A DNA stretch of 64,000 nt, from positions 11,424 to 75,423 of the forward strand of contig JAKALT010000002.1 in assembly GCA_021813125.1 (NCBI GenBank), read 5' to 3'. How positions within the stretch are numbered: position 1 is the stretch's first letter; every line of letters begins with the position of its first letter. The notes under the pieces were generated by a model that did no database searches, was not told the origin of the DNA, and saw only the letters and a list, made by a program, of their open reading frames with translations. The position numbers and the translations under genes are program-made. This document shows, in pieces, positions 1 to 39,616 of the stretch. The stretch comes from a bacterium. GTDB taxonomy: Bacteria; Patescibacteriota; Microgenomatia; Curtissbacterales; GWA2-41-24.

Positions 1-1424
1 AAAATACTTGCATTCAACCTTACCTTTCGAGCCTCTTCAGCTTTTATATGTCTACCTGTGACTGTAAATGCAGTTCTGTCTCCTTGAGAAACAAGGCTTG
101 GATAAGGACAGTCTTCGTTGCACCCTTCGCTCTCTTTGACATCCATGCAACCAGTAACAAAATGATAATTTTGCTCTCCGATATTAGAAATATCTTGTGG
201 AGCAATAACCATTGATAAAAACTGTAAAATCTGCATAGAAGCAGTTGATAAACTAAAAGCAAACACATTTTCATTTCGTTTGATGGGATGTTCATCAGGC
301 AAAGAACTAATATAAGTTGGGTCATCTAAATAACCTTCCCGTTCCACCGATACCAACCCAGGATCATATTGCTTGAGACATTCTAAACATTTTCTTGTCG
401 GTCCAACGATATGAGCTTTCCAATCCGCCCCCTTTAGAATTCCTTTAGGGCTAACACTTACAGTTATCCCTCCATCTATAATTGGGATTAAGTGAGCATA
501 GGCAATAAAATTTAACACACTTCTAGCCCAAGGTCGGTCAACACAACTGAATATTACATCGCAATCAAGAGCTTCCCTAAAACCATCTTCTTCAACAACG
601 CTATATTCTAGTGACTCAGCTGTAAAATCGGTTGATGTTGCGTTTTTCCGAATCGCACGTGCCACAACATTCACTTTAGACTTACCTACATCTTCTCTGG
701 TCGCATGTAATAATCTGTCTAAGTTAACAAGTTCAACGCTATCAAAGTCAATCAATTTGATGTTTGCTATCCCCATTCTAGCGATTGACTCGGCTACCAT
801 AGACCCAACGCTGCCAACACCGATAATCCCGACTTGTATTCTTGCCAGATCAGCTTGTTTATTCTCTCCCCAAGCAGAAATAGTGCGCTCTAACTCTCTT
901 CTAAACTCTGGTTTAGGTAAAAGCTGTTCATTAAAAGTAATATTCAGCGCGTCACCTATAATTCTTACGGTTTTACACCAAAATCTTTCATATGTTCGAG
1001 GTTTAATTTTTTCCCAAAATCTTGCACTCCATGCCCCATCAGTACCAAGAGTTAACCCAACTAAGGGAAACCGAGTGGCCCCCCTTGTAGGTGCAGCATG
1101 GTTTAATTCTGCAAAAAAATCATCTCTGCTCATGTCTTGCCAGCCGGGACTAGTATGGCTATGCATAAACGCTAAACAGGCATTCTTTGAAGATGCTATA
1201 GAAAGAGCCCTTTCGAAGTAGCCAGGCAGAAAACCTGCGTTCTTATGTAGCACATGTTCTCCCTTCTCAGGAAGGATAAGTTCTCTAATAAGTGCAGTTT
1301 CCCTATTACGTCCGATGCTTGGATACCATATAGCAAAACACAAATTTTCTTGTCCGTCTTTCCTCAGCAAGTGTTCTAAAGCCTGTTTGTGAATGTCAGA
1401 AGGAATCGCTACGCTATAATTCAT
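1..1424 (-). CDS. JAB/MPN (JAMM) metalloprotease domain fused to E1-like ThiF/MoeB adenylyltransferase domain; C-terminus truncated by window edge
   Basis: Manual minus-strand translation from the ATG at 1424 is open to position 1 with no stop, so the track omits it because the stop lies outside the window. The N-terminus carries a JAMM-like E...HSH-x8-S-x2-D motif (QENLCFAIW ... MHSHTSPGWQDMSRDD). It is followed by a glycine-rich GIIGVGSVGS (GxGxxG) nucleotide-binding loop, IDFDSVELVNLDR, and two CxxC pairs (CLEC ... CNEDC) typical of MoeB/ThiF/E1 zinc sites. The start overlaps the upstream gene's stop (ATGA). Confidence 0.7.
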   Translation of the reverse strand, partial: MNYSVAIPSDIHKQALEHLLRKDGQENLCFAIWYPSIGRNRETALIRELILPEKGEHVLHKNAGFLPGYFERALSIASSKNACLAFMHSHTSPGWQDMSRDDFFAELNHAAPTRGATRFPLVGLTLGTDGAWSARFWEKIKPRTYERFWCKTVRIIGDALNITFNEQLLPKPEFRRELERTISAWGENKQADLARIQVGIIGVGSVGSMVAESIARMGIANIKLIDFDSVELVNLDRLLHATREDVGKSKVNVVARAIRKNATSTDFTAESLEYSVVEEDGFREALDCDVIFSCVDRPWARSVLNFIAYAHLIPIIDGGITVSVSPKGILKGADWKAHIVGPTRKCLECLKQYDPGLVSVEREGYLDDPTYISSLPDEHPIKRNENVFAFSLSTASMQILQFLSMVIAPQDISNIGEQNYHFVTGCMDVKESEGCNEDCPYPSLVSQGDRTAFTVTGRHIKAEEARKVRLNASI

Positions 1425-1789
1425 TGAGTTGAAAAAAGATGACGGACATATCTCATATAATCCCTAACAGCTCTTTTAGTTTTAGCCCATTCCCCGGGAG
1501 GGAAGGGTCTGCTCCAGTATTCCCAGTCGGGTCCAAAATTAGGACTCTCTGCAACTCTTGCGGGATGACTTGTCTCATTTGGATTAATTGGTAGGATTCT
1601 AGGCGACACATGAAGACCGCCTGGAGGGTTTAAATTCCAGTCTTGCGGAACATCAAGACCTAGTTTTATCGATTGGTCTTTAAATTTTCCATCTAACACA
1701 ACATAATCAAACACAATTTTATTATCGTTTAACACCTCAGCTTGGTAGCCTAGTGTATTAAGCTCATCGATAAATTCCTGTGTTGGCAT
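1421..1789 (-). CDS. UBC-fold E2-like protein with no cysteine (UEV-like, predicted catalytically inactive E2)
   Basis: 122 aa. An N-terminal helix, a PPGGLHV flap, then SHPAR...DWEYWSRP resembling the HPN...W-S-P core of E2/UBC. The sequence contains no Cys at all. It is translationally coupled in the operon: it starts 3 nt after the Ubl-like gene's stop and overlaps the downstream gene (ATGA). Confidence 0.4.
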   Translation of the reverse strand: MPTQEFIDELNTLGYQAEVLNDNKIVFDYVVLDGKFKDQSIKLGLDVPQDWNLNPPGGLHVSPRILPINPNETSHPARVAESPNFGPDWEYWSRPFPPGEWAKTKRAVRDYMRYVRHLFSTQ

Positions 1790-1792
1790 ACT

Positions 1793-2053
1793 TTAAGAAA
1801 CCGGCGTCTCGCCGGTAAACACCGAAATAAATTTCATTTTTTCATGCATGTGAATTGACTCATCCATCTTATCTTTGTAAGACTCTCTGTGATTACCTTG
1901 CATTTGGACTAAATAATGATTTTCAGGATCAATTCCAGCTTTTTCTAGTATCTGTCGTGGAGTTAATGTCTTTTCAGTAGTGTATTGCTCTTCGTCGTCA
2001 ACCATATATTCTATTTCTTTATTTTTAGGTTCATCGTTTGACATACTTTTCAA
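1793..2053 (-). CDS. small acidic protein, putative beta-grasp ubiquitin-like (Ubl) protein; C-terminus ...VFTGETPVS with no Gly-Gly
   Basis: 86 aa with a strong SD (GAGGAGG) about 9 nt upstream of the ATG. It is the first gene of a three-gene operon that contains E2-like and JAB-E1 genes. The segment LTPRQILEKAGIDPENHYLVQ is compatible with a beta-grasp fold. The call rests mainly on operon context. Confidence 0.3.
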   Translation of the reverse strand: MKSMSNDEPKNKEIEYMVDDEEQYTTEKTLTPRQILEKAGIDPENHYLVQMQGNHRESYKDKMDESIHMHEKMKFISVFTGETPVS

Positions 2054-2092
2054 CCTCCTCTCTGTTCAATTTTGCAGTTGCTTTCAGTGAAT

Positions 2093-2130
2093 TTGACATT
2101 AAGGTTAATATACCATAAACTGTAAGGTAT
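2093..2130 (+). promoter_or_regulatory. candidate sigma70-like promoter (TTGACA-17-TAAACT) for the LexA-paralog operon, overlapped by inverted repeat ATACC-N11-GGTAT (2110-2130) as candidate operator
   Basis: TTGACA at 2093-2098, a 17-nt spacer, TAAACT at 2116-2121. The 5-bp inverted arms at 2110-2114 and 2126-2130 straddle the -10. This sits in the divergent intergenic region between the Ubl operon and the lexA-like gene. Confidence 0.3.
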
Positions 2131-2147
2131 CAACAATAGTTAAGTGT

Positions 2148-2750
2148 ATGCTTCCACCAAAGCAAAAAGCGGTTTACGATTTTATAAAAAAATTCCAAGT
2201 TGAACATGGGTTTGGGCCAACTCTAGATGAAATAGCGACCAAACTCAAAAAAACAGTTCCCACGATTCACCAACACGTGCAAGCACTGAGAGCTAAAGGC
2301 TTCCTAAAACAAGTTGGAGTTGTCGCCAGAAGTATATCAACATTTGATTCAAACGAGGAGGTGAGTGAGATTCCTCTTTTGGGCTATGTTTCAGCCGGTA
2401 GTGGTATTGAGAATATTGAAAATCCAGAAACCATAAAGGTTCAGAATTCTATGATTTCTCCCCAAGGGGCTCACTTCGCCCTGATCGTGAAAGGAACTTC
2501 AATGATAGAAGACGGGATATTTCCTGAAGATATAATCGTGGTAAAACGCCAAAACTTCGCTGATAATGGAGACGTCGTTGTGGCTTTGACAGGTTCTCAG
2601 GATAGAGCACTTGCCACTGTCAAGCGGTTTTACAACCAAGGCGATAAAATTGAACTAAGGCCCAAAAATCCAATACTGCCCTCAGTTTTTTACGATCCAG
2701 GCCAAATAGAAATTAGAGGAAAATTTGTTGGGTTAATTAGAAGAGCTTAA
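2148..2750 (+). CDS. LexA-family repressor paralog (wHTH plus S24 autopeptidase), first gene of the R-M operon
   Basis: The N-terminus has a LexA-type winged HTH (GPTLDEIATKLKK...HVQALRAKGFL). The C-terminus has S24 catalytic motifs: VKGTSM (Ser) and VVKRQ (Lys). It is separated from dcm by 18 bp. Confidence 0.8.
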   Translation: MLPPKQKAVYDFIKKFQVEHGFGPTLDEIATKLKKTVPTIHQHVQALRAKGFLKQVGVVARSISTFDSNEEVSEIPLLGYVSAGSGIENIENPETIKVQNSMISPQGAHFALIVKGTSMIEDGIFPEDIIVVKRQNFADNGDVVVALTGSQDRALATVKRFYNQGDKIELRPKNPILPSVFYDPGQIEIRGKFVGLIRRA

Positions 2751-2768
2751 CTTGTTATTATTATAACT

Positions 2769-3806
2769 ATGAAAAAGTATTCTGTCATTTCTTTGTTTAC
2801 TGGTTGCGGCGGCCTTGATTTGGGATTCGTTGGTGGCTTCACTTTTATGAACAAGCTTTATCCAAAAAGCAATTTTGAAATTATTTGGGCCAATGACATT
2901 GATAAACCCTCTTGTCAAACCTTTAGCAATTACTTCGACCATGACATTGTTTGCGGAGATATCACCCAAATTCTTGACGGTAACCCGAACTCATTTTTTG
3001 ATAAACCCTTGCCAGAACATGCCGACATAGTTATTGGTGGTTTTCCTTGCCAAGATTTTAGCCACGCTGGCAAAAGAAAAGGCTTTAACGCTAAAAGAGG
3101 TCTACTTTATCAGAGTATGTGTGAGGTTGTGAGACGCACAAAACCTATCTTGTTTGTCGCTGAAAATGTAAAGGGGCTGACGACCATGGATGATGGGAGA
3201 GCTTTAAAAACTATTATTAATGACTTTGAAAAGTTAGGATACAACGTTACCTACAAATTATTAACCGCCGCAGACTATGGAGTTCCTCAAATTAGAGAAA
3301 GAGTCATTATCGTTGGGACACGAAAAGAGAGTCTTCCCCTCTTTGAACACCCAAAGCCAATTCTAGATAAAAATGAGTGGGTTACACTTAAAGAGGCTAT
3401 TGGCGATTTAGAAAATGTTCCTGAAGGGGCGGTAGCTAACCATTATTGGTCTAAAGCTAAGATGTTTCCAGGAACGCAAGGGAACACTTTTGTTTCCCCT
3501 GATAAGCCTGGTCCAACGATGAGAACGGAGCATCATGGTAATATCGAATGGCATTGGAATAAAAAAAGAAGATTATCGGCCAGAGAAGCGGCAAGGATTC
3601 AATCTTTTCCTGACGATTTCGTTTTTTACCCTTCGACTTCATCAGCTTATAAACAAATTGGTAACGCCGTTCCACCGGTATTAGCCTGGCACGTCGCTAG
3701 AGCAATTGAAAAGTTTCTTAATAAAAACGTTGAAAAAAGTAAGGTTGAATCCAGCCCATCCCTTGATAGACTACTTGCCACTCAAACTGAAGCCAGAACT
3801 TTATGA
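2769..3806 (+). CDS. dcm: DNA (cytosine-5)-methyltransferase
   Basis: Motif I FTGCGGLDLGF, motif IV GFPCQDFS, motif VI ENVKGL, and the C-terminal QIGNAVP. Confidence 0.9.
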   Translation: MKKYSVISLFTGCGGLDLGFVGGFTFMNKLYPKSNFEIIWANDIDKPSCQTFSNYFDHDIVCGDITQILDGNPNSFFDKPLPEHADIVIGGFPCQDFSHAGKRKGFNAKRGLLYQSMCEVVRRTKPILFVAENVKGLTTMDDGRALKTIINDFEKLGYNVTYKLLTAADYGVPQIRERVIIVGTRKESLPLFEHPKPILDKNEWVTLKEAIGDLENVPEGAVANHYWSKAKMFPGTQGNTFVSPDKPGPTMRTEHHGNIEWHWNKKRRLSAREAARIQSFPDDFVFYPSTSSAYKQIGNAVPPVLAWHVARAIEKFLNKNVEKSKVESSPSLDRLLATQTEARTL

Positions 3807-4867
3807 TTGTTATAGATGATCCCAACATACTTCAAGAGAGCTTCTTACGGCTCTTGGAAAATACTAAAACTCACACTCTTGACGAACTTGTCGCTTTAGG
3901 AGGAAAAGCTAAAAAACTTAATGGTGATGAATTTGAAAATATCGTTTATAACAGTAGTTTAACTGCCTCAAAGAAAACTGAGTTTGAGGGTCACGTGATT
4001 CACACAGGTCCTCACGCTTTTCCTGATATCATAGCGAAAAAATACTTCGGGATTGAAGTAAAAATGACGACTGGTGATAAGTGGGTTTCCACCGGGAACA
4101 GTATTTTGGAAAGCACGAGAGTCGATGAGGTTGAGAAGATCTACATGTTTTTTGGCAAATTCGGTGGAGGCATAGATATTCGCTACAGGAATTATCAGGA
4201 TTGCTTATACGATATCGGTGTTACTCACTCACCTCGATACAAGATTGACATGGATTTAGTTGAGGGAAATTCAATTTTCGACAAAATGGGAGTTTCCTAC
4301 GAGGAGCTTCGAAAAGAAAATAACCCCATAAATAAGATTAAGGACTACTATCGGAATCAATTGAAAGATGGCGAAGAGTTGTGGTGGATTGACGCTCAGG
4401 TAGAAGACAAAACGGTAAGCCCCATCATTAAACCCTTTCGGTTATTGAGTCGAGAAGATCAAAAAAATTTCATTACCGAGGCAATGATTCTTTTTCCTGA
4501 GATATTCGGAAAGAGCGTCACTAAGTACGAAAGACCAGCGGCTTACCTTATCACAAAATATAACTCCGTGTCCTCCAGTTTAAGAGATATATTCACGGCT
4601 GGTGGCCAGGTAGAGCTATCCGTCATGGGTAAAAAAGTGATAGTCCCAAGGATATTCGCCCACTTGCTAGAAGAAGCTAAGAATATCCAGCGTAAAATCG
4701 CAGAGTTAAATGTGAATGATTTAGCGTACTACTGGAGAACGCAACGAATAGATGAGCCTCGTGTTGATCAGTGGAAACAGTTAGTCAATCAAGAAACGGG
4801 TGGACAACTTGATGGTTTAACTGCCTCCAGTATTTACGAATGGGGACTAAAAGAAGACGAAAAATAA
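3803..4867 (+). CDS. putative type II restriction endonuclease (PD-(D/E)xK) cognate to the C5-methyltransferase
   Basis: It overlaps the dcm stop (ATGA). FPDIIAKKYFGIEVKMT fits the PD...E-x-K nuclease motif. Its position lies between the MTase and vsr. Confidence 0.5.
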   Translation: MIVIDDPNILQESFLRLLENTKTHTLDELVALGGKAKKLNGDEFENIVYNSSLTASKKTEFEGHVIHTGPHAFPDIIAKKYFGIEVKMTTGDKWVSTGNSILESTRVDEVEKIYMFFGKFGGGIDIRYRNYQDCLYDIGVTHSPRYKIDMDLVEGNSIFDKMGVSYEELRKENNPINKIKDYYRNQLKDGEELWWIDAQVEDKTVSPIIKPFRLLSREDQKNFITEAMILFPEIFGKSVTKYERPAAYLITKYNSVSSSLRDIFTAGGQVELSVMGKKVIVPRIFAHLLEEAKNIQRKIAELNVNDLAYYWRTQRIDEPRVDQWKQLVNQETGGQLDGLTASSIYEWGLKEDEK

Positions 4868-5307
4868 AAAATTACGCCGGACGTGACTACAAAAAAGAAA
4901 GGGTGCCGGATAAACAATCTCCATTGTCTCGATCGGCTCAAATGTCCAAGATTCGGTCTAAAGACACTAAGTTTGAGGAAGATTTTATAAACACCTTGAA
5001 AGGCATATACGACAAGAACTTTCTAACCCACGTCCGCTCGGTCAAAGGTAACCCAGATATAGTTTTTAGTGAAAAGAAATTGTGCTTGTTTTTAGATAGC
5101 GACTTTTGGCATGGTTGGCAATATCCTAGGTGGAAACACTTACTGAAAGATGATTTTTGGAGAAGTAAAATCGAAAATAATAGGCAGAGGGACGTTAAAG
5201 TAACGAGATTTTTGAGAAAGAGTGGTTGGAGAGTTATAAGAGTCTGGGAACACCAGTTAAAAGACAAAGATGCTGTTCTAGCGAAAATACGACAATCGCT
5301 CCAATAA
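4840..5307 (+). CDS. vsr: very short patch repair endonuclease (Vsr); true start may be the internal ATG at 4942
   Basis: MSKIRSKDTKFE ... GNPDIVF ... CLFLDSDFWHGW ... WRSKIENNRQRD ... GWRVIRVWEHQL matches Vsr family signatures. The first 34 codons overlap the REase 3' end. Confidence 0.85.
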   Translation: MGTKRRRKIKNYAGRDYKKERVPDKQSPLSRSAQMSKIRSKDTKFEEDFINTLKGIYDKNFLTHVRSVKGNPDIVFSEKKLCLFLDSDFWHGWQYPRWKHLLKDDFWRSKIENNRQRDVKVTRFLRKSGWRVIRVWEHQLKDKDAVLAKIRQSLQ

Positions 5308-5338: not shown

Positions 5339-7036
5339 CTACTTTGATTTACTCTTTGAAGCTTGTTTATCATCTTCGGGAGGTATTTCGCCTATTTGTG
5401 CTACATGACCGCTTATGTTCAGCGTCAGAATTGTTTTGTTCTCGTTCTTTTTTACTCTTGGATATTTTTTGAGGAATTCTCGGTTCTCACTTAGCAGATA
5501 AATGGTTTCATAAACTGAGCCGTTTGTTCTCCTTAAATCTCTGCCATGTAATAATCCTTCTCTTCGTATTTTTTTAACGGAAGAGGGATGGATATTATGC
5601 CTTGAATTTAATTGCGAATGTGAAATCCACTCATCTTCGTTATCGAACAGGTGTTTCTTTAGTTGGGGTATAACTCCTTCCTTAATGTTGCGCCAACAAT
5701 CCGCGCAGCGGATACCCTCTAAGTTCCACCAGATTTCGTTGCCATAATGGCCTTCGTAGCAAATTCCACAGTTGTAATAGCCATCCGCATCAAGGAAAAA
5801 TCCATCCGGCTCTTTTTCCAGCCTTCTTTTTCTCACGGCATCAATTCCTTCCTGCTCACCTCGCATTTGCGCAAGCTTCACCCAACTGCTGGTACTGTAT
5901 TTCATTCGCTTTTCAGGGTCTAGCGCTATTGGTTGCTCTTTTTTCCCTTCGTAAAGCTTTAGCAAATCCTCTTCGCGTTCATATCCCTTTAGCCTTCCAG
6001 AAAGAACACCGAGTCGATAACTCACGTTATCCATAAGTCGCCAGTTAGTATTTCCTAACTCATTTTTAAGGAGCTTCTCAAGTGTACTTACACTTATGTT
6101 TTCTCTTCGTGAGGCTTCGGCATCCTGCAACGTAAACGGAACGAAAATAAATTGTCCTATTTCCGGAGCAGAAAAGGAAAGCTTCACATAGTTCGCCTTT
6201 CCCAATATATCCGTTAAGCGTTTTTCCAGCTCAACAATAGTTAACTTTTTAAGCCTGCTGACTTGCTGGTAAGCGCTGTTATCATATTTTTGCTTTGTTT
6301 CATCATGAACAAGTTTAGCGTATTCCATTGCCTCCAGTTCAAACAGGTACTTTTCTCCTTGCTCATCTGTTAAGCAAAAGGCGGTTCTGTACTTTTCCAA
6401 CAGCTCTTTATCTGCCTGTTCTTTTTGCTGATACTCTTTATGGTTCATTTCAAAGTCATCCACTTCAGTTTCGGTATAGCCACAGAACTTACATTTTCTC
6501 GTCCAGGTTATAATTTTTCCTTGCTTTGCTTTTGTATGCTTTACTTCAATTTCTCTGTTGCATTTAGGGCAAAGGTCGGGCTTCGATTGTCTTATTTGGC
6601 CGTTTTCGTAAACCCATTCTTGTTTTTTGCACTTGGTACAGCGAAAAAGAAATATGACCCGCATTGGCTGGTCGGTATAATCTTCAAGATGCTTAGTCTC
6701 GGTTGCTTGCATTATTGCTTTGCATGATGGGCAGTAGATACTTTGGGGTTCAACTGCACTGTCATACTTTTCCTGTTTAATTCTGTCTGCATCCATCCAT
6801 TTTTTAAGCGTTTCCTTCTTGCTTTTGTATTCCTGAGCCTGAGTTAACCATAATTGCCAATACATCAGTTTTGTCGTGTTACTGTATTTATCCTGCTTTG
6901 ATATTCCTTTAAACTCTTTACTGGTTAAGCCTTTCTGGTAAATGTCTTCGAACATTTCAACAATCTTGAGACACTCTTTTATCGTTAAAAGATCGTAACG
7001 GTCAATATAATTTTGCTCGTTTTGCAAATAATCCAT
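5339..7036 (-). CDS. large (565 aa) protein with multiple CxxC zinc-ribbon motifs, unknown function
   Basis: CPSCK...CTKCK and CPKCN...CKFCG zinc ribbons, a coiled-coil-like middle, and a C-terminal CGIC-YEGHYGNEIWWN-...-CADC cluster. It is convergent with vsr and divergent from the XRE regulator. Confidence 0.55.
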   Translation of the reverse strand: MDYLQNEQNYIDRYDLLTIKECLKIVEMFEDIYQKGLTSKEFKGISKQDKYSNTTKLMYWQLWLTQAQEYKSKKETLKKWMDADRIKQEKYDSAVEPQSIYCPSCKAIMQATETKHLEDYTDQPMRVIFLFRCTKCKKQEWVYENGQIRQSKPDLCPKCNREIEVKHTKAKQGKIITWTRKCKFCGYTETEVDDFEMNHKEYQQKEQADKELLEKYRTAFCLTDEQGEKYLFELEAMEYAKLVHDETKQKYDNSAYQQVSRLKKLTIVELEKRLTDILGKANYVKLSFSAPEIGQFIFVPFTLQDAEASRRENISVSTLEKLLKNELGNTNWRLMDNVSYRLGVLSGRLKGYEREEDLLKLYEGKKEQPIALDPEKRMKYSTSSWVKLAQMRGEQEGIDAVRKRRLEKEPDGFFLDADGYYNCGICYEGHYGNEIWWNLEGIRCADCWRNIKEGVIPQLKKHLFDNEDEWISHSQLNSRHNIHPSSVKKIRREGLLHGRDLRRTNGSVYETIYLLSENREFLKKYPRVKKNENKTILTLNISGHVAQIGEIPPEDDKQASKSKSK

Positions 7037-7130
7037 TAATCTCTGGTTAAATAAAATTTTAATAAATTACTTTACAGACATGATTATAATATAAAACTAT
7101 CTCTAAAGGTTGTATAATAAGACTTAAAAT

Positions 7131-7337
7131 ATGGTATCTAAAAACAGACTAGGTGAAAATCTAAAAAAAGCCAGACAGAAGGCAGGGCTATCACAAGTAC
7201 AGTTGGCCAAAAAAGCAAAAATACACGCAAATTATTACGCGCGGGTCGAACGTGGCGAAGTTAACCCTTCGGTTGAAATAGTGGAAAATATAGCCAAAGC
7301 TCTGAATGTAAAATCATCAGAGATATTACCCTTTTAA
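7131..7337 (+). CDS. XRE-family helix-turn-helix transcriptional regulator
   Basis: 68 aa with GLSQVQLAKKAKIHANYYARVERGE, a typical Cro/C1 HTH. Confidence 0.8.
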   Translation: MVSKNRLGENLKKARQKAGLSQVQLAKKAKIHANYYARVERGEVNPSVEIVENIAKALNVKSSEILPF

Positions 7338-7399
7338 TCTGAAAATTCAAAAAGAGCGTAATTGGATTGTCAGAACAGGTTATTTGTATCTTCCTGCGC

Positions 7400-7428
7400 T
7401 TGATAGGCTTCCATTAATTTGCTAAAAT
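7400..7428 (+). promoter_or_regulatory. candidate promoter TTGATA-17-TAAAAT upstream of tRNA-Arg
   Basis: The -35 is at 7400-7405 and the -10 at 7423-7428. The tRNA starts at 7484. Confidence 0.35.
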
Positions 7429-7483
7429 GAGCCAAGATCGGGAGTACAATTAGTTCAAAATAATTTGCGTCTCCCGCTCATTA

Positions 7484-7556
7484 GCCCGCGTAGCTCAACG
7501 GATAGAGCACTCGCGTTCTAAGCGATTGGTTGGGGGTTCGAATCCCTCCGCGGGCG
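7484..7556 (+). tRNA. tRNA-Arg (anticodon TCT)
   Basis: Hand-folded cloverleaf: acceptor GCCCGCG/CGCGGGC, D-arm GCTC-AACGGATA-GAGC, anticodon loop GTTCTAA, T-arm GGGGG-TTCGAAT-CCCTC. No CCA is encoded. Confidence 0.7.
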
Positions 7557-7633
7557 CTTACTTTTTCTTGTAAACTTCTTTTACTAAAAACAGTGAATGA
7601 GTAAAATGATTTTTGGTATAATTTGGTATGTTT

Positions 7634-7708
7634 GGTGGCTGTAGCTCAGTTGGTTAGAGCGCTGGCTTGTGGAGCCGGATGTCGGGGGTTCGAGTCCCCT
7701 CAGCCACC
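7634..7708 (+). tRNA. tRNA-His (anticodon GTG) with encoded G-1
   Basis: G-1 pairs with discriminator C. Acceptor GTGGCTG/CAGCCAC, anticodon stem CTGGC/GCCGG, loop TTGTGGA, T-loop TTCGAGT. An extended -10 (TGgTATAAT) lies about 12 nt upstream. Confidence 0.8.
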
Positions 7709-7714
7709 CATAAT

Positions 7715-9088
7715 CTACTTTGGTAATTGGTTGTAGATTTTCTCTGAGTTTTTGTAGACAACCTGATAGGTATAGGGATAATAGAGAAAAGCTGCAGGGT
7801 CGTCTTCGACAAGAAATCTTTGAAAATCGGCGTACAAATCTTTCCTTAGGCCTTCGTCTTGAGTTGAGCGGGCGTCTTCTAGGATTTTGTCTATTTTTAC
7901 ATTAACATAGCCTGTAATATTGGTCGCTTTTTGGGTTGAGTGCCATAGCGGGTACTGATCCGGGTCGGGAGGGAGATGATTTATTGCCAAAAGGGCCTGA
8001 AAATTTGCAGGAATACCCTTTTCCTGTTTTAGCTTCACATTTACACCGATTGCTTGCCAGTTATCCTGTATTTGCTTGGCTACCTCGTCAAGGCCAGGCA
8101 TAACCGAAAGAGTTATGGTTTGCCCTTTGGCATTTGTTCTTGAGAGCATCTCTTTGGCTTTTGCAGGACTAAAATCGTATCTTTTGACTGAAGGATTGTA
8201 TGCCCAACTTGCAGAAGAAATTGGGCTGAATGCACTTTCACCGTCAAAATTATCCTTATTTATGGCGTATGTTAGTGCCTGCCTTAAATCCCGAGATGAA
8301 AGGAGCTGGTCACCGGTTTTGAAAAACACTGTAACCAGTGAACTTTCGTCTGTATCCTGTTTTACGTCAACGTTGGGCCACGACTTAAAAGCTTTTGCGT
8401 TTGCTACTTTTAGAATTTTTATATCACCCATTTTGAGGGCAGTTATTGCCTGTTTTTCTGAGGGGTAAAATTTAATCTCGACTTTTGGCAGGTTGGGGTT
8501 TTTGGGATGAAGCCTGATCCTTTTCACCATTGAATCGACCTGGTCGATACCTACAATTCTAAATTCACCCGTACCGTAAAAGGTCTTTGTCTTAAAAACC
8601 GGTTTATCTAACGCTTCAAGGAATGAAGATATGGGATTTGGGAGATGAAATTCGATTGTTTTGTTGTTTATTGCACTTGCGGTTACATTTGTTATGGCTA
8701 TGCTTATATCTTTGGCATCTACAGGTGTTGCATCGTGCCAGGTGAGATTATCTTTTAGAAAAACGGTGTAAGTTTTTTGATCTTCCGAAACAGTCCAGTG
8801 TGAGGCAAGTGAAGGTTGGGGTTTTCCGTCGGGGCCTTCCGTTATAAGCGATTGCGTAGCAAGAGTTAGGACTTCTGTCGGGATTTGTTCCAACGTGTAG
8901 TTGCCAACGTAGCCTATTGTAAGTGTGCTGCCGTTATTGATTACAGGAAGAAGTTTTACCAATGCCAAAATAAAAAGAATAAGTATTATGAATGAAATTA
9001 AAACTCTACGCTGATACCTGTTTGCGTAGGCCAGGGATAAATGCCACCAAAATTTAAGGCGTCTTGTGCGAACGGATAAAAATGACAT
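7715..9088 (-). CDS. ABC transporter substrate-binding protein, family 5 (peptide/nickel type), membrane-anchored
   Basis: An N-terminal TM anchor and DppA/OppA-like periplasmic-binding architecture over 457 aa. Confidence 0.6.
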   Translation of the reverse strand: MSFLSVRTRRLKFWWHLSLAYANRYQRRVLISFIILILFILALVKLLPVINNGSTLTIGYVGNYTLEQIPTEVLTLATQSLITEGPDGKPQPSLASHWTVSEDQKTYTVFLKDNLTWHDATPVDAKDISIAITNVTASAINNKTIEFHLPNPISSFLEALDKPVFKTKTFYGTGEFRIVGIDQVDSMVKRIRLHPKNPNLPKVEIKFYPSEKQAITALKMGDIKILKVANAKAFKSWPNVDVKQDTDESSLVTVFFKTGDQLLSSRDLRQALTYAINKDNFDGESAFSPISSASWAYNPSVKRYDFSPAKAKEMLSRTNAKGQTITLSVMPGLDEVAKQIQDNWQAIGVNVKLKQEKGIPANFQALLAINHLPPDPDQYPLWHSTQKATNITGYVNVKIDKILEDARSTQDEGLRKDLYADFQRFLVEDDPAAFLYYPYTYQVVYKNSEKIYNQLPK

Positions 9089-38144: not shown

Positions 38145-38216
38145 GGCCCGCTAGCTCAATGGTAGAGCAGTTGCCTTTTAAGCAATTGGTTACAGGTTCG
38201 AATCCTGTGCGGGTCA
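38145..38216 (+). tRNA. tRNA-Lys (anticodon TTT)
   Basis: Acceptor GGCCCGC/GCGGGTC, anticodon stem GTTGC/GCAAT, loop CTTTTAA, T-arm ACAGG-TTCGAAT-CCTGT. Confidence 0.8.
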
Positions 38217-39544: not shown

Positions 39545-39616
39545 GGCTCCATCGTCTATCGGTTAGGACGGGACCCTTTCAAGGTCCAAAGCGGGGTTCG
39601 ATTCCCCGTGGAGCCA
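39545..39616 (+). tRNA. tRNA-Glu (anticodon TTC)
   Basis: Acceptor GGCTCCA/TGGAGCC, anticodon stem GGACC/GGTCC, loop CTTTCAA, T-arm CGGGG-TTCGATT-CCCCG. Confidence 0.8.

What the first reader, a model, noticed from the sequence alone, without database searches (positions are those of the whole stretch)
1..2053. Compact Ubl-like / Cys-less E2-like / JAB::E1 fusion operon
Three translationally coupled genes on the minus strand encode, in order, a small putative beta-grasp protein, a UBC-fold protein without any cysteine, and a single polypeptide joining a JAMM metalloprotease domain to an E1 (ThiF/MoeB) adenylation domain with a 2xCxxC zinc site. Bacterial E1-E2-JAB-Ubl cassettes are established, described computationally and more recently shown to act in antiviral defence. 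This arrangement is unusual in three ways: JAB fused N-terminal to E1, an E2 that cannot form a thioester, and a Ubl with no C-terminal Gly-Gly. The cassette sits in a defence-type island next to an R-M system. It may be a non-canonical conjugation or deconjugation system, or an E2-independent E1-to-target transfer system.
Basis: partly seen in the sequence, partly recalled or inferred. Interest (0 to 1): 0.8.

Follow-up and report, generated by a model that had tools for sequence, protein, structure and literature searches.

The report
Cysteine-free bacterial ubiquitin-like conjugation cassette
Three coupled genes on a mobile island encode a small ubiquitin-like protein, an E2-like enzyme and a protease-E1 fusion of the recently described cysteine-free "Bub" protein-tagging pathways, here in a reduced form that lacks the usual fourth gene and whose tag ends in serine instead of glycine.

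Summary
The minus strand carries a beta-grasp Ubl (83 aa, 1793-2044), a cysteine-free UBC-fold protein (122 aa, 1421-1789) and a JAB::E1 fusion (1-1424; 487 aa in the full contig).

The E1 keeps the invariant crossover-loop tyrosine (Y371). The E2 keeps a serine (S93) that aligns with the BubB catalytic serine.

The locus is still not a textbook Bub operon. No DUF6527/BubE gene was found here or in the 17 related loci with sequence beyond the E1 gene. Ubl and E2 are separate genes. The E2 motif is WSRP, not WSRH. Every Ubl of the clade ends in, or carries before a short extension, an invariant Thr-Pro-Val-Ser.

A genuine LexA sits where relatives carry CapH/CapP-like regulators.

Verdict: new variant of a known kind, moderate interest.

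The parts
1793..2044 (-). Ubl (BubA-like), 83 aa. It has a single beta-grasp domain and no Cys. The C-terminus is ...FTGETPVS-COOH, with the Ser83 codon at 1796-1798 and the TAA stop at 1793-1795.
   Evidence: ORF and ribosome-binding site. AF2 pLDDT 86.8 with beta-beta-alpha-beta-beta-beta topology. Foldseek top hits are 8u38, 9ea8_B (BubA 155-229), 9d59 and 9cd2, at TM 0.61-0.71 normalised to the query. hhalign of the family against classical BubAB gives E=2e-11, with terminal S aligned on terminal G. V82 and S83 are invariant in A2 (18 sequences); 12 of the 16 Ubl homologs end exactly at S, and 7 of 9 Ubls read in related genomic loci do the same.
1421..1789 (-). E2-like protein (BubB-like, Prok-E2_E type), 122 aa, no Cys. 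The proposed catalytic Ser93 (codon 1511-1513) lies in the WEYWSRP motif. Other invariant residues include H75 (1565-1567), Y91, R94 and P95.
930..1424 (-). JAB/JAMM metallopeptidase domain of the JAB::E1 fusion, approximately residues 1-165. Active-site residues are E26 (1347-1349), H88 (1161-1163), H90 (1155-1157), S99 and D102 (1119-1121). The start ATG overlaps the E2 stop as ATGA.
   Evidence: Alignment to Citrobacter BubCD peptidase domain residues E28, H91, H93 and D104. Across 12 JAB::E1 proteins E26, H88 and H90 are invariant, and S99 and D102 are kept in at least 90%.
1..902 (-). E1 (ThiF-type) adenylation domain of the JAB::E1 fusion, from about residue 175 to residue 474. The last 13 residues lie left of the window. 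Features: GxGxxG at 202-207, R237 (714-716), D296 (537-539), zinc site C346/C349 plus C435/C439, and the proposed catalytic Tyr371 (312-314) in the crossover loop. There is no Cys between 349 and 426.
   Evidence: Pfam ThiF 2.6e-32. PDB best hit BubCD 9ea4 at E=5e-23 (single sequence) and 3e-36 (profile). Y371 is invariant in 12 proteins, including a classical BubCD. Cysteine positions. Full-length sequence.
2045..2147 (.). 103-bp divergent intergenic region between the Ubl operon and lexA. It presumably holds both promoters and the operator.
   Evidence: Sequence. A sigma-70-like TTGACA-17-TAAACT faces lexA at 2093-2121. No clear palindromic operator was found.
2148..2750 (+). LexA repressor, 200 aa (winged HTH plus S24 autopeptidase, with an Ala-Gly site and Ser/Lys dyad). 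It is transcribed divergently from the cassette and is the inferred DNA-damage-responsive regulator. It occupies the position held by HTH plus Peptidase_M78 (CapH/CapP-like) regulators in relatives.
   Evidence: NCBIfam TIGR00498 LexA equivalog scores 151.7 bits, above the 110.95 cut-off. Pfam LexA_DNA_bind plus Peptidase_S24. Regulators in relatives. The link to the cassette is an inference from position.
2769..5307 (+). Context, not part of the cassette. A type II restriction-modification system with repair gene: m5C methylase (2769-3806), restriction enzyme (3803-4867) and Vsr endonuclease (4840-5307), co-directional with lexA.
   Evidence: Pfam DNA_methylase 1.7e-78 and Vsr 1.5e-13. PADLOC REase_II 7.7e-42.

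Best explanation
The cassette is a reduced relative of the Type I Bub (operon type 6e) bacterial ubiquitination-like pathway, carried on a roughly 12-kb integrative element.

Proposed mechanism, inferred by homology to Citrobacter Bub:

1. The E1 domain of the JAB::E1 protein binds the 83-aa beta-grasp Ubl and adenylates its C-terminal carboxylate, here that of Ser83.
2. The acyl group passes to the hydroxyl of Tyr371 in the E1 crossover loop as an oxyester.
3. It then passes to Ser93 of the 122-aa E2-like protein as a second oxyester.
4. Finally it reaches a lysine of a target protein.

No cysteine takes part.

The JAB domain is the only peptidase of the system. In relatives whose Ubl carries a short extension or is fused to the E2, it would cut right after the conserved ...TPVS to mature the Ubl. 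In this locus the Ubl is already mature, so the JAB domain most likely removes the Ubl from targets. That is the role assigned to the missing BubE protease in classical Bub operons.

Expression is probably kept off by the divergently encoded LexA and released on DNA damage or phage infection. The biological role, most likely anti-phage or stress defence of the host or element, is the least certain step.

Shown by tools: homology, folds, conserved residues and gene context. Inferred: every chemical step and the role.
For: JAB::E1
- Its best solved-structure match is Citrobacter BubCD over both domains (E=5e-23; profile E=3e-36).
- JAB residues E26, H88 and H90, adenylation residues R237 and D296, and crossover-loop Y371 are invariant across 12 JAB::E1 proteins, including a classical BubCD. 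S99 and D102 are kept in at least 90% of them.
- Y371 lies 22 residues after the CxxC. By my own recollection of the UBA5 zinc ligands, that matches the spacing of UBA5 Cys250 from its CxxC. BubCD Y370 is named as the catalytic residue in PMC11601596.
- There is no Cys in the crossover loop.

E2
- It gives a full-length Prok-E2_E match. Classical BubAB hits the same Pfam family at 105 bits.
- hhalign places its invariant WSR on the WSR(H) catalytic motif of BubB.
- All 36 homologs and the window protein keep [W/L]SRP.

Ubl
- It is a beta-grasp closest to BubA and multi-ubiquitin structures.
- The family aligns to BubAB with E=2e-11, with its terminal Ser on the Gly after which BubCD cleaves.
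- Natural Ubl-E2 fusions and short C-terminal extensions exist in the clade (P0030, P0032, PVSRN, PVSDCEE).

Context
- The same trio recurs in Archaea, Planctomycetia, Acidobacteria, Bacteroidota and Actinobacteria, and related BubE-less trios lie on plasmids.
- Seven related loci have a divergent HTH plus Peptidase_M78 regulator, as described for Bub operons. Here the regulator is a true LexA.
- The island has tRNA genes at one edge and a large serine recombinase and a TraD-like ATPase on the other side.
Against: - Nothing was tested biochemically. Every chemical step is inferred by homology at 26-29% identity to classical BubCD.
- The accessory residues said to activate the BubB serine are not kept. 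The His of S-x-H is an invariant Pro95, and the Asp position is Ser or Gly.
- The Pfam E2 hit is below the gathering score (21.9 against 25). The E2 profile-profile probability is only 64%.
- A C-terminal Ser has no precedent known to me among conjugated Ubls.
- BubE is absent, although it is stated to be present in all Bub operons.
- Even classical Bub operons have not yet been shown to protect against phage.
- LexA is co-directional with the restriction-modification genes and may control them rather than, or as well as, the cassette. No operator was identified.
Confidence: 0.72

Rival explanations
1. The E2-like protein is a catalytically inert, RWD-like adaptor. The E1 either hands the activated Ubl directly to targets or only adenylates it.
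For: There is no cysteine in the window protein and no conserved cysteine in its family. Iyer et al. 2006 classed these domains as inactive E2/RWD-like. The His and Asp that accompany the catalytic serine in Type I BubB are not conserved here.
Against: S93, R94 and P95 are invariant in 31 aligned sequences, and all 36 homologs keep the SRP motif. The serine aligns with the BubB serine whose mutation, together with the neighbouring His (S333A/H335A), abolishes conjugation. An inert adaptor would not need an invariant Ser, His75 and Tyr91.
Confidence: 0.12
2. The system does not conjugate proteins. The ThiF-type domain adenylates the C-terminal serine of the small protein for other chemistry, such as a thiocarboxylate sulfur carrier or a MccB-like peptidyl-nucleotide or cyclised product. 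The JAB domain only matures the precursor.
For: After BubCD, the nearest solved relatives are TcdA, UBA5, MoeB, MccB and ThiF. Unlike Citrobacter BubCD, this E1 keeps the ThiF/MoeB-type zinc cysteines. A non-glycine terminus recalls MccA, which by my recollection ends in Asn.
Against: There is no rhodanese domain and there are no sulfur-metabolism or export genes nearby. A conserved E2-fold partner with an invariant serine is always present. The substrate is a folded 83-aa BubA-like beta-grasp protein, not a short peptide. The setting is a mobile element, not a biosynthetic cluster.
Confidence: 0.08
3. The locus is a decaying Type I Bub operon. A nonsense mutation split BubAB, BubE was lost, and the genes are no longer functional.
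For: The Ubl stop is in frame with the E2 start and only one codon away. Fused versions exist in relatives. There is no DUF6527 gene.
Against: The split layout, with the Ubl ending exactly at ...PVS, recurs across distant bacterial and archaeal lineages at 45-80% Ubl identity. All catalytic residues are intact. The genes are tightly coupled, and the Ubl gene has its own ribosome-binding site. Near-identical copies occur in several metagenomes.
Confidence: 0.03

Closest known systems
Type I Bub pathway (BubAB, BubCD, BubE; formerly 6E.1/DUF6527 operons), Citrobacter sp. RHBSTW-00271; Ye, Gong, Chambers and Corbett 2024, PMC11601596; PDB 9ea4, 9ea8, 9eae, 9eav
   Same: - JAB/JAMM peptidase fused N-terminally to a ThiF-type E1, with no crossover-loop cysteine and an invariant tyrosine.
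- Cysteine-free Prok-E2_E/BubB-type E2 with a conserved W-S-R serine.
- BubA/multi-ubiquitin-type beta-grasp Ubl.
- Same gene order.
- Location on mobile elements, with a DNA-damage-type regulator upstream.
   Different: - No BubE/DUF6527 serine protease.
- Ubl and E2 are separate genes here.
- The Ubl ends in an invariant Ser, not Gly.
- The E2 motif is WSRP rather than WSRH, and the accessory Asp is not conserved.
- The E1 keeps a CxxC...CxxxC zinc site that Citrobacter BubCD lacks at the first motif.
- The regulator is LexA rather than CapW or CapH/CapP.
- Identity to classical BubCD is only 26-29%.
Operon type 6e of Iyer, Burroughs and Aravind 2006 (PMC1779556): polyUbl, inactive E2/RWD-like protein, JAB-E1 fusion and metal-binding protein Y
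   Same: A Ubl (solo in at least one listed genome), a separate or fused cysteine-free E2-fold protein and a JAB fused to E1. Distribution is sporadic and tied to mobile elements.
   Different: The fourth, metal-binding protein Y is absent. I take Y to be what is now DUF6527/BubE, but I did not test that equivalence. The paper predicted an inactive E2.
Type II Bub (BubA, BubBD, BubE; E. coli ZDHYS365)
   Same: Cysteine-free Tyr/Ser relay and a BubA-type Ubl.
   Different: Type II fuses E2 to E1, has no JAB domain, uses Lys plus His around the E2 serine, and encodes BubE.
Bil systems (BilABCD, Types I and II) and Type II CBASS Cap2/Cap3
   Same: Bacterial Ubl or substrate conjugation with E1, E2 and JAB components, located in defence islands. 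PADLOC E1-E2 (Cap2) models hit the ThiF domain.
   Different: Both use catalytic cysteines. The Bil E1 has tandem adenylation domains plus a Cys domain and a separate JAB. CBASS has an E2-E1 fusion and conjugates a CD-NTase, not a Ubl. No CD-NTase or effector is present here.
BubE-less trios on actinobacterial plasmids (Clavibacter pCCa, Mycobacteroides abscessus plasmid 1) and haloarchaeal plasmids
   Same: The same three-gene layout without DUF6527. The JAB::E1 is 38-43% identical in the actinobacterial plasmids and about 28% in the haloarchaeal ones. The actinobacterial loci have CapH/CapP-like regulators upstream.
   Different: The actinobacterial loci have a di-Ubl ending ...GGVA and the E2 motif RHSR(D/E). 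The haloarchaeal locus has a Ubl ending ...GSGRS, an E2 with a WSH motif and a DEAD/DEAH box helicase gene directly downstream. These are annotated only as 'multiubiquitin domain-containing protein', 'hypothetical protein' and 'ThiF family adenylyltransferase'.

Membership tests
Type I Bub (6E.1) | JAB/JAMM peptidase fused N-terminally to a ThiF-type E1 (BubCD) | tested here: met
   The full-length match to Citrobacter BubCD 9ea4 covers both domains (E=5e-23; profile E=3e-36). The residues aligned on the BubCD peptidase active site are present (E26, H88, H90, D102). Across 12 proteins E26, H88 and H90 are invariant and D102 is kept in at least 90%.
Type I Bub (6E.1) | E1 crossover loop without cysteine and with an invariant tyrosine (BubCD Y370) | tested here: met
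   Y371 is invariant in 12 JAB::E1 proteins, including Pontibacter BubCD. There is no Cys between C349 and C426. Exact equivalence to Y370 is inferred, because the HMM alignments to 9ea4 stop at residue 352-355.
Type I Bub (6E.1) | Cysteine-free UBC-fold E2 (BubB, Pfam Prok-E2_E) with a catalytic serine | tested here: met
Type I Bub (6E.1) | Invariant His (S-x-H) and Asp accompanying the E2 serine | tested here: not met
   The clade has an invariant S93-R94-P95. The column of the classical Asp (D160 in Pontibacter BubAB) holds Ser or Gly. Other invariant residues (H75, Y91, R94) may substitute.
Type I Bub (6E.1) | Ubl encoded as a fusion to the E2 (BubAB) and released by the JAB domain | tested here: not met
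   A TAA stop and one codon separate the Ubl and E2 here. Most clade members are split, and a few are fused (P0030, P0032, L010).
Type I Bub (6E.1) | Multi-ubiquitin-type beta-grasp Ubl with a conserved C-terminal glycine | tested here: not met
   The fold criterion is met: Foldseek top hits are 8u38, 9ea8_B and 9d59. The terminus is an invariant Ser that aligns on the classical Gly. Pfam Multi_ubiq does not hit the window protein, but it hits relatives.
Type I Bub (6E.1) | BubE (DUF6527/PF20137) serine protease gene in the operon | tested here: not met
   No DUF6527 hit was found among the neighbours scanned here. None was found in the called or annotated genes, or on the cassette strand, of 17 related loci with sequence beyond the E1 gene. 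The positive control, Pontibacter BubE, scores 76 bits.
Type I Bub (6E.1) | Frequent association with DNA-damage-responsive regulators (CapW/BrxR or CapH plus CapP) | tested here: inconclusive
   Seven related loci have a divergent HTH_3 plus Peptidase_M78 pair or fusion. The window has a LexA instead. It is functionally analogous but a different family, and it may serve the adjacent restriction-modification genes.
Operon type 6e (Iyer et al. 2006) | Ubl or polyUbl, inactive E2/RWD-like protein, JAB-E1 fusion and metal-binding protein Y | tested here: inconclusive
   The first three components are present. No fourth conserved gene was found. No sequence of protein Y was available for direct comparison.
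Bil (BilABCD) | E1 with inactive plus active adenylation domains and a catalytic-Cys domain, E2 with a catalytic Cys, and a stand-alone JAB | tested here: not met
   There is a single adenylation domain, no catalytic Cys in E1 or E2, and the JAB is fused. Definition taken.
Type II CBASS (Cap2/Cap3) | E2-E1 fusion (Cap2) and JAB (Cap3), together with a CD-NTase and an effector | tested here: not met
   PADLOC E1-E2 models hit only the ThiF segment, residues about 186-350. There is no CD-NTase or effector in the neighbourhood.

The most novel reading that the evidence does not exclude
This clade would be a ubiquitin-like conjugation system whose modifier is activated and attached through a C-terminal serine rather than glycine. 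It would run entirely without cysteines and make do with a single peptidase, the JAB domain, which cuts after Ser. That makes a self-contained three-protein writer and eraser. It was missed by published Bub censuses because those were seeded on the DUF6527 gene that this clade lacks. The terminal hydroxyl might even take part in the chemistry.
Probability: 0.45. Interest if true: 0.65.

Novelty: new variant of a known kind. Interest (0 to 1): 0.45.

Why it matters
[quoted passage not shown] Their biological role is still unknown.

This minimal three-gene clade shows which parts are dispensable: BubE, the Ubl-E2 fusion, and the His and Asp around the E2 serine. It also shows which parts are not: the E1 tyrosine, the E2 serine and the JAB site.

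An invariant serine terminus would relax the near-universal rule that conjugated Ubls end in glycine. It would also say something about how E1 active sites accept the tail.

The swap between CapH/CapP-like regulators and a true LexA strengthens the idea that these cassettes are switched on by DNA damage or infection.

In practical terms, censuses seeded on DUF6527 will miss this clade.

Tried and rejected
1. Recoding or readthrough joining the Ubl and E2 into a BubAB-like fusion, for example UGA read as Gly. Rejected: the stop is TAA, and the other genes of the island are intact under the standard code.

2. Gly78 of ...FTGETPVS as the true processed terminus. Rejected: that column is K, R or E in 4 of 18 sequences, whereas V82 and S83 are invariant, and the profile alignment puts S on the classical G.

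3. A GC-rich terminator-like hairpin at the Ubl 3' end (1801-1825), which might set Ubl:enzyme stoichiometry. It is not significant (z=-1.1) and is not conserved in 8 relatives.

4. A palindromic LexA operator in 2045-2147. None was found. CTGT-N9-ACAA is only a loose resemblance to the E. coli box.

5. Attachment-site direct repeats flanking the island. None was convincing. There is also no GC anomaly; the region is about 40% GC throughout.

6. PADLOC gives no system-level assignment, only Cap2-type hits on the ThiF domain.

7. Pfam Prok-JAB and Multi_ubiq do not hit the window proteins. NCBIfam and PHROGs have nothing for the Ubl or the E2.

8. Phage genomes hold no full-length relatives.

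9. Sequence searches of the PDB with the E2 or Ubl alone found nothing significant. Fold comparison was needed.

10. The supplementary tables of the Bub paper are not held, so the published operon list could not be checked directly.

11. The 118-aa gene downstream in the closest relative (L017) has no Pfam hit. By eye it is hydrophobic, and it is not conserved elsewhere.
Full report
**What is in the sequence**

The minus strand of window 1-2053 holds three tightly packed ORFs.

- An 83-aa protein starts at the ATG at 2044, preceded by GGAGG, and ends at a TAA at 1793-1795.
- A 122-aa protein runs from 1789 to 1421.
- A long ORF starts at 1424, overlapping the previous stop as ATGA, and runs off the window.
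- One codon separates the first stop from the second ATG, and the two ORFs are in the same frame.

An exact-sequence look-up of the 122-aa protein found the same locus on a 112-kb metagenome contig (L001). That contig gives the full third protein, 487 aa, so the window lacks only 13 residues. The 122-aa protein has no cysteine.

**What the proteins are**

*The long protein (JAB::E1).*

- It has a ThiF domain (Pfam E=2.6e-32).
- Its best match among all solved structures is Citrobacter BubCD (9ea4). The match covers the N-terminal peptidase domain and the E1 domain, with E=5e-23 for the single sequence and 3e-36 for a family profile.
- The residues aligned on the BubCD peptidase active site are present (E26, H88, H90, D102). 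Across 12 homologs from bacteria and archaea, E26, H88 and H90 are invariant, and S99 and D102 are kept in at least 90%.
- The same alignment shows invariant adenylation residues (G202, G207, D226, D228, N234, R237, K250, D296, R301).
- Exactly one tyrosine in the crossover loop, Y371, is invariant. It is also present in a classical BubCD.
- Y371 lies 22 residues after a CxxC. No cysteine occurs between C349 and C426.
- The zinc site is C346xxC349 plus C435xxxC439.

*The 122-aa protein (E2-like).*

- It gives a full-length but sub-threshold Pfam match to Prok-E2_E (21.9 bits against a 25-bit cut-off).
- Its AlphaFold2 model is very confident (pLDDT 95.4).
- Foldseek returns almost only E2 enzymes.

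*The 83-aa protein (Ubl).*

- Its model is a beta-grasp (pLDDT 86.8).
- The best matches are the bacterial multi-ubiquitin/BubA structures 8u38, 9ea8_B, 9d59 and 9cd2.

**What is already known**

Iyer, Burroughs and Aravind (2006, PMC1779556, Table 1 row 6e) described operons with four components:

- a solo or tandem Ubl;
- an "inactive E2/RWD-like" protein, sometimes fused to the Ubl;
- a JAB fused to E1;
- a metal-binding protein.

Ye et al. (2024, PMC11601596) renamed these Bub pathways. They showed the following for Type I:

- BubCD cleaves the BubAB fusion after a conserved glycine.
- BubCD has no catalytic cysteine and uses the invariant crossover-loop Tyr370.
- BubB uses Ser333, accompanied by His335 and Asp299.
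- A fourth protein, BubE (DUF6527), is a serine protease present in all Bub operons.

**How this locus differs**

I took a textbook Type I Bub operon from a Pontibacter plasmid (L016) as reference. It encodes BubAB (Multi_ubiq plus Prok-E2_E at 105 bits), BubCD, DUF6527 and an ImmA/IrrE-type regulator. I then built a profile of 25 classical BubAB proteins.

1. *Catalytic motif of the E2.* Classical BubB domains have an invariant Q-x-W-S-R-H-R-T. The window's E2 family (31 aligned, 36 found) has an invariant W-S-R-P; S93, R94 and P95 are invariant. Profile-profile alignment places WSR on WSR (E=6.3e-5, probability 64%). S93 is therefore the likely catalytic serine. The accessory His is replaced by Pro, and the Asp column holds Ser or Gly. 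H75 and Y91 are invariant and could substitute.

2. *C-terminus of the Ubl.* Classical BubA ends ...DQTEG before the E2 domain. In this clade the Ubl ends with an invariant T-P-V-S.
   - Twelve of 16 database homologs stop exactly at Ser.
   - The others add 2-4 residues (PVSRN, PVSRH, PVSDCEE).
   - Two further proteins, found as E2 homologs, are fused to the E2 after PVSD.
   - Seven of the 9 Ubls I read in related genomic loci also end at Ser. One adds Ser-Arg, and one ends TPTS.
   - The profile alignment puts this Ser on the classical terminal Gly (E=2e-11).
   - Gly78 is not conserved.

3. *No DUF6527.* None was found among the neighbours scanned here. None was found in the called or annotated genes, or on the cassette strand, of 17 related loci with sequence beyond the E1 gene. 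The genes downstream of the E1 differ from locus to locus.

4. *Gene layout.* The Ubl and E2 are usually separate genes.

5. *Zinc site.* The E1 keeps the ThiF/MoeB-type zinc cysteines, whereas Citrobacter BubCD has no CxxC at that point.

The published Bub census was drawn from DUF6527-containing operons. It would not have captured this clade. I found no later paper on it in the held library.

**Distribution**

- The JAB::E1 family has 266 cluster representatives at E<1e-30.
- It has matches in 146 plasmid records.
- It has no full-length relative in phage genomes.
- The Ser-terminus trio occurs sporadically in two archaeal MAGs, one of them Thermoplasmata, and in Planctomycetia, Terriglobia, Acidobacteriaceae, Daejeonella, Solirubrobacterales and Ktedonobacterales.
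- Other BubE-less trios have different termini. They include actinobacterial plasmids with a di-Ubl ending GGVA and an E2 with RHSR, and haloarchaeal plasmids.

**Context**

In window coordinates the island reads as follows.

- tRNA-His and tRNA-Arg (7484-7709).
- A small HTH protein (called at L001 4453-4659, about window 7131-7337).
- A 565-aa zinc-ribbon protein (5339-7036).
- Vsr, a type II restriction enzyme and an m5C methylase (5307-2769).
- LexA (2750-2148).
- The cassette (2044-1).
- Left of the window, a TraD/HerA-like ATPase and a large serine recombinase.

This is a small integrative element next to tRNA genes, the setting reported for the studied Bub operons.

The 200-aa protein transcribed divergently from the cassette passes NCBI's LexA equivalog threshold (151.7 bits against 110.95). 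By eye it has the Ala-Gly cleavage site and the Ser/Lys dyad.

In seven related loci the same divergent position holds an XRE-type HTH plus Peptidase_M78 pair or fusion. That is the CapH/CapP architecture reported for 31% of Bub operons.

I infer that LexA is the regulator here and that it supplies the same DNA-damage logic. It is co-directional with the restriction-modification genes, so it may serve them too. I found no operator.

**Mechanism proposed**

All steps below are inferred by homology.

1. The E1 domain adenylates the carboxylate of Ser83.
2. The Ubl passes to Tyr371 as an oxyester.
3. It passes to Ser93 of the E2 as a second oxyester.
4. It passes to a target lysine.

The JAB domain matures the extended or fused precursors found in some relatives by cutting after Ser. 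With BubE absent, it probably also reverses conjugation.

The role is most likely stress- or infection-induced defence. This has not been shown even for classical Bub operons.

**Rival readings**

The rivals are an inert E2 adaptor, non-conjugating chemistry at the Ser terminus, and a decaying operon. They are discussed with their evidence in the dedicated fields, and together I give them about 0.25.

**Verdict**

- The locus is a new variant of a known kind: a BubE-less, split, Ser-terminated relative of Type I Bub under LexA.
- Interest is moderate. It rests mainly on the invariant serine terminus and the minimal three-protein make-up.

Noticed in passing
window 2148-5307 (+): A genuine LexA (TIGR00498, above the cut-off) lies 19 bp upstream of, and co-directional with, an m5C methylase, a type II restriction enzyme and a Vsr nicking endonuclease. 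This looks like a restriction-modification operon headed by an SOS repressor inside a mobile island. LexA may control the restriction-modification genes, the divergent Ubl cassette, or both.
   Followed up: partly
window 5339-7036 (-): A 565-aa protein with several CxxC zinc-ribbon-like pairs matches no Pfam, NCBIfam or PHROGs family. It gives only weak hits to zinc ribbons and to an excisionase-like region near residues 467-503. It lies between the restriction-modification genes and the tRNA edge of the island.
   Followed up: partly
window 7484-7709 (+); L001 12259-16886 (left of the window): tRNA-Arg(TCT) and tRNA-His(GTG) mark one edge of the island. On the other side of the cassette, outside the window, are an 836-aa TraD/HerA-like ATPase (best PHROG match 5156, unknown function), a 133-aa ORF and a 555-aa large serine recombinase. 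No flanking direct repeats and no GC shift were found.
   Followed up: partly
window 2130-2143 and 6231-6244: An exact 14-nt repeat (TCAACAATAGTTAA on the + strand) occurs once just upstream of the lexA start codon and once inside the 565-aa ORF. About 0.4 such pairs are expected by chance in 14 kb, so it may mean nothing.
   Followed up: no
window 1801-1825 (-): A GC-rich hairpin (CCGGCG-AGA-CGCCGG) followed by a T-rich stretch sits exactly at the Ubl stop codon. It is built from unusually GC-rich codons for a 40% GC genome. It is not significant against shuffles (z=-1.1) and is not conserved in relatives.
   Followed up: yes
L014 4188-6479; L015 4099-6479; L024 3089-5614: Other BubE-less Ubl/E2/JAB::E1 trios lie on plasmids.
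- Clavibacter and Mycobacteroides abscessus: a di-Ubl ending ...GGVA and an E2 with an RHSR motif.
- Haloplanus: a Ubl ending ...GSGRS, a 163-aa E2-like protein with a WSH motif, a 587-aa JAB::E1, and a DEAD/DEAH box helicase gene directly downstream.

Public records annotate the E2-like genes only as hypothetical proteins.
   Followed up: partly
L008 6354-7995: In a Planctomycetia MAG the JAB::E1 gene is split into two frames (6354-6719 and 6745-7995). This is either a frameshifted pseudogene or an assembly error.
   Followed up: no
L017 9375-9731: The closest relative of the cassette (70% E2 identity) has a hydrophobic 118-aa ORF with no family match directly after the E1 gene, followed by an N6/N4 methylase and a PD-(D/E)XK nuclease. 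This is another restriction-modification neighbour, but of a different type and on the other side.
   Followed up: partly
window 38145-38216 and 39545-39616 (+): Two more tRNA genes lie in the host part of the window. They were not examined further.
   Followed up: no
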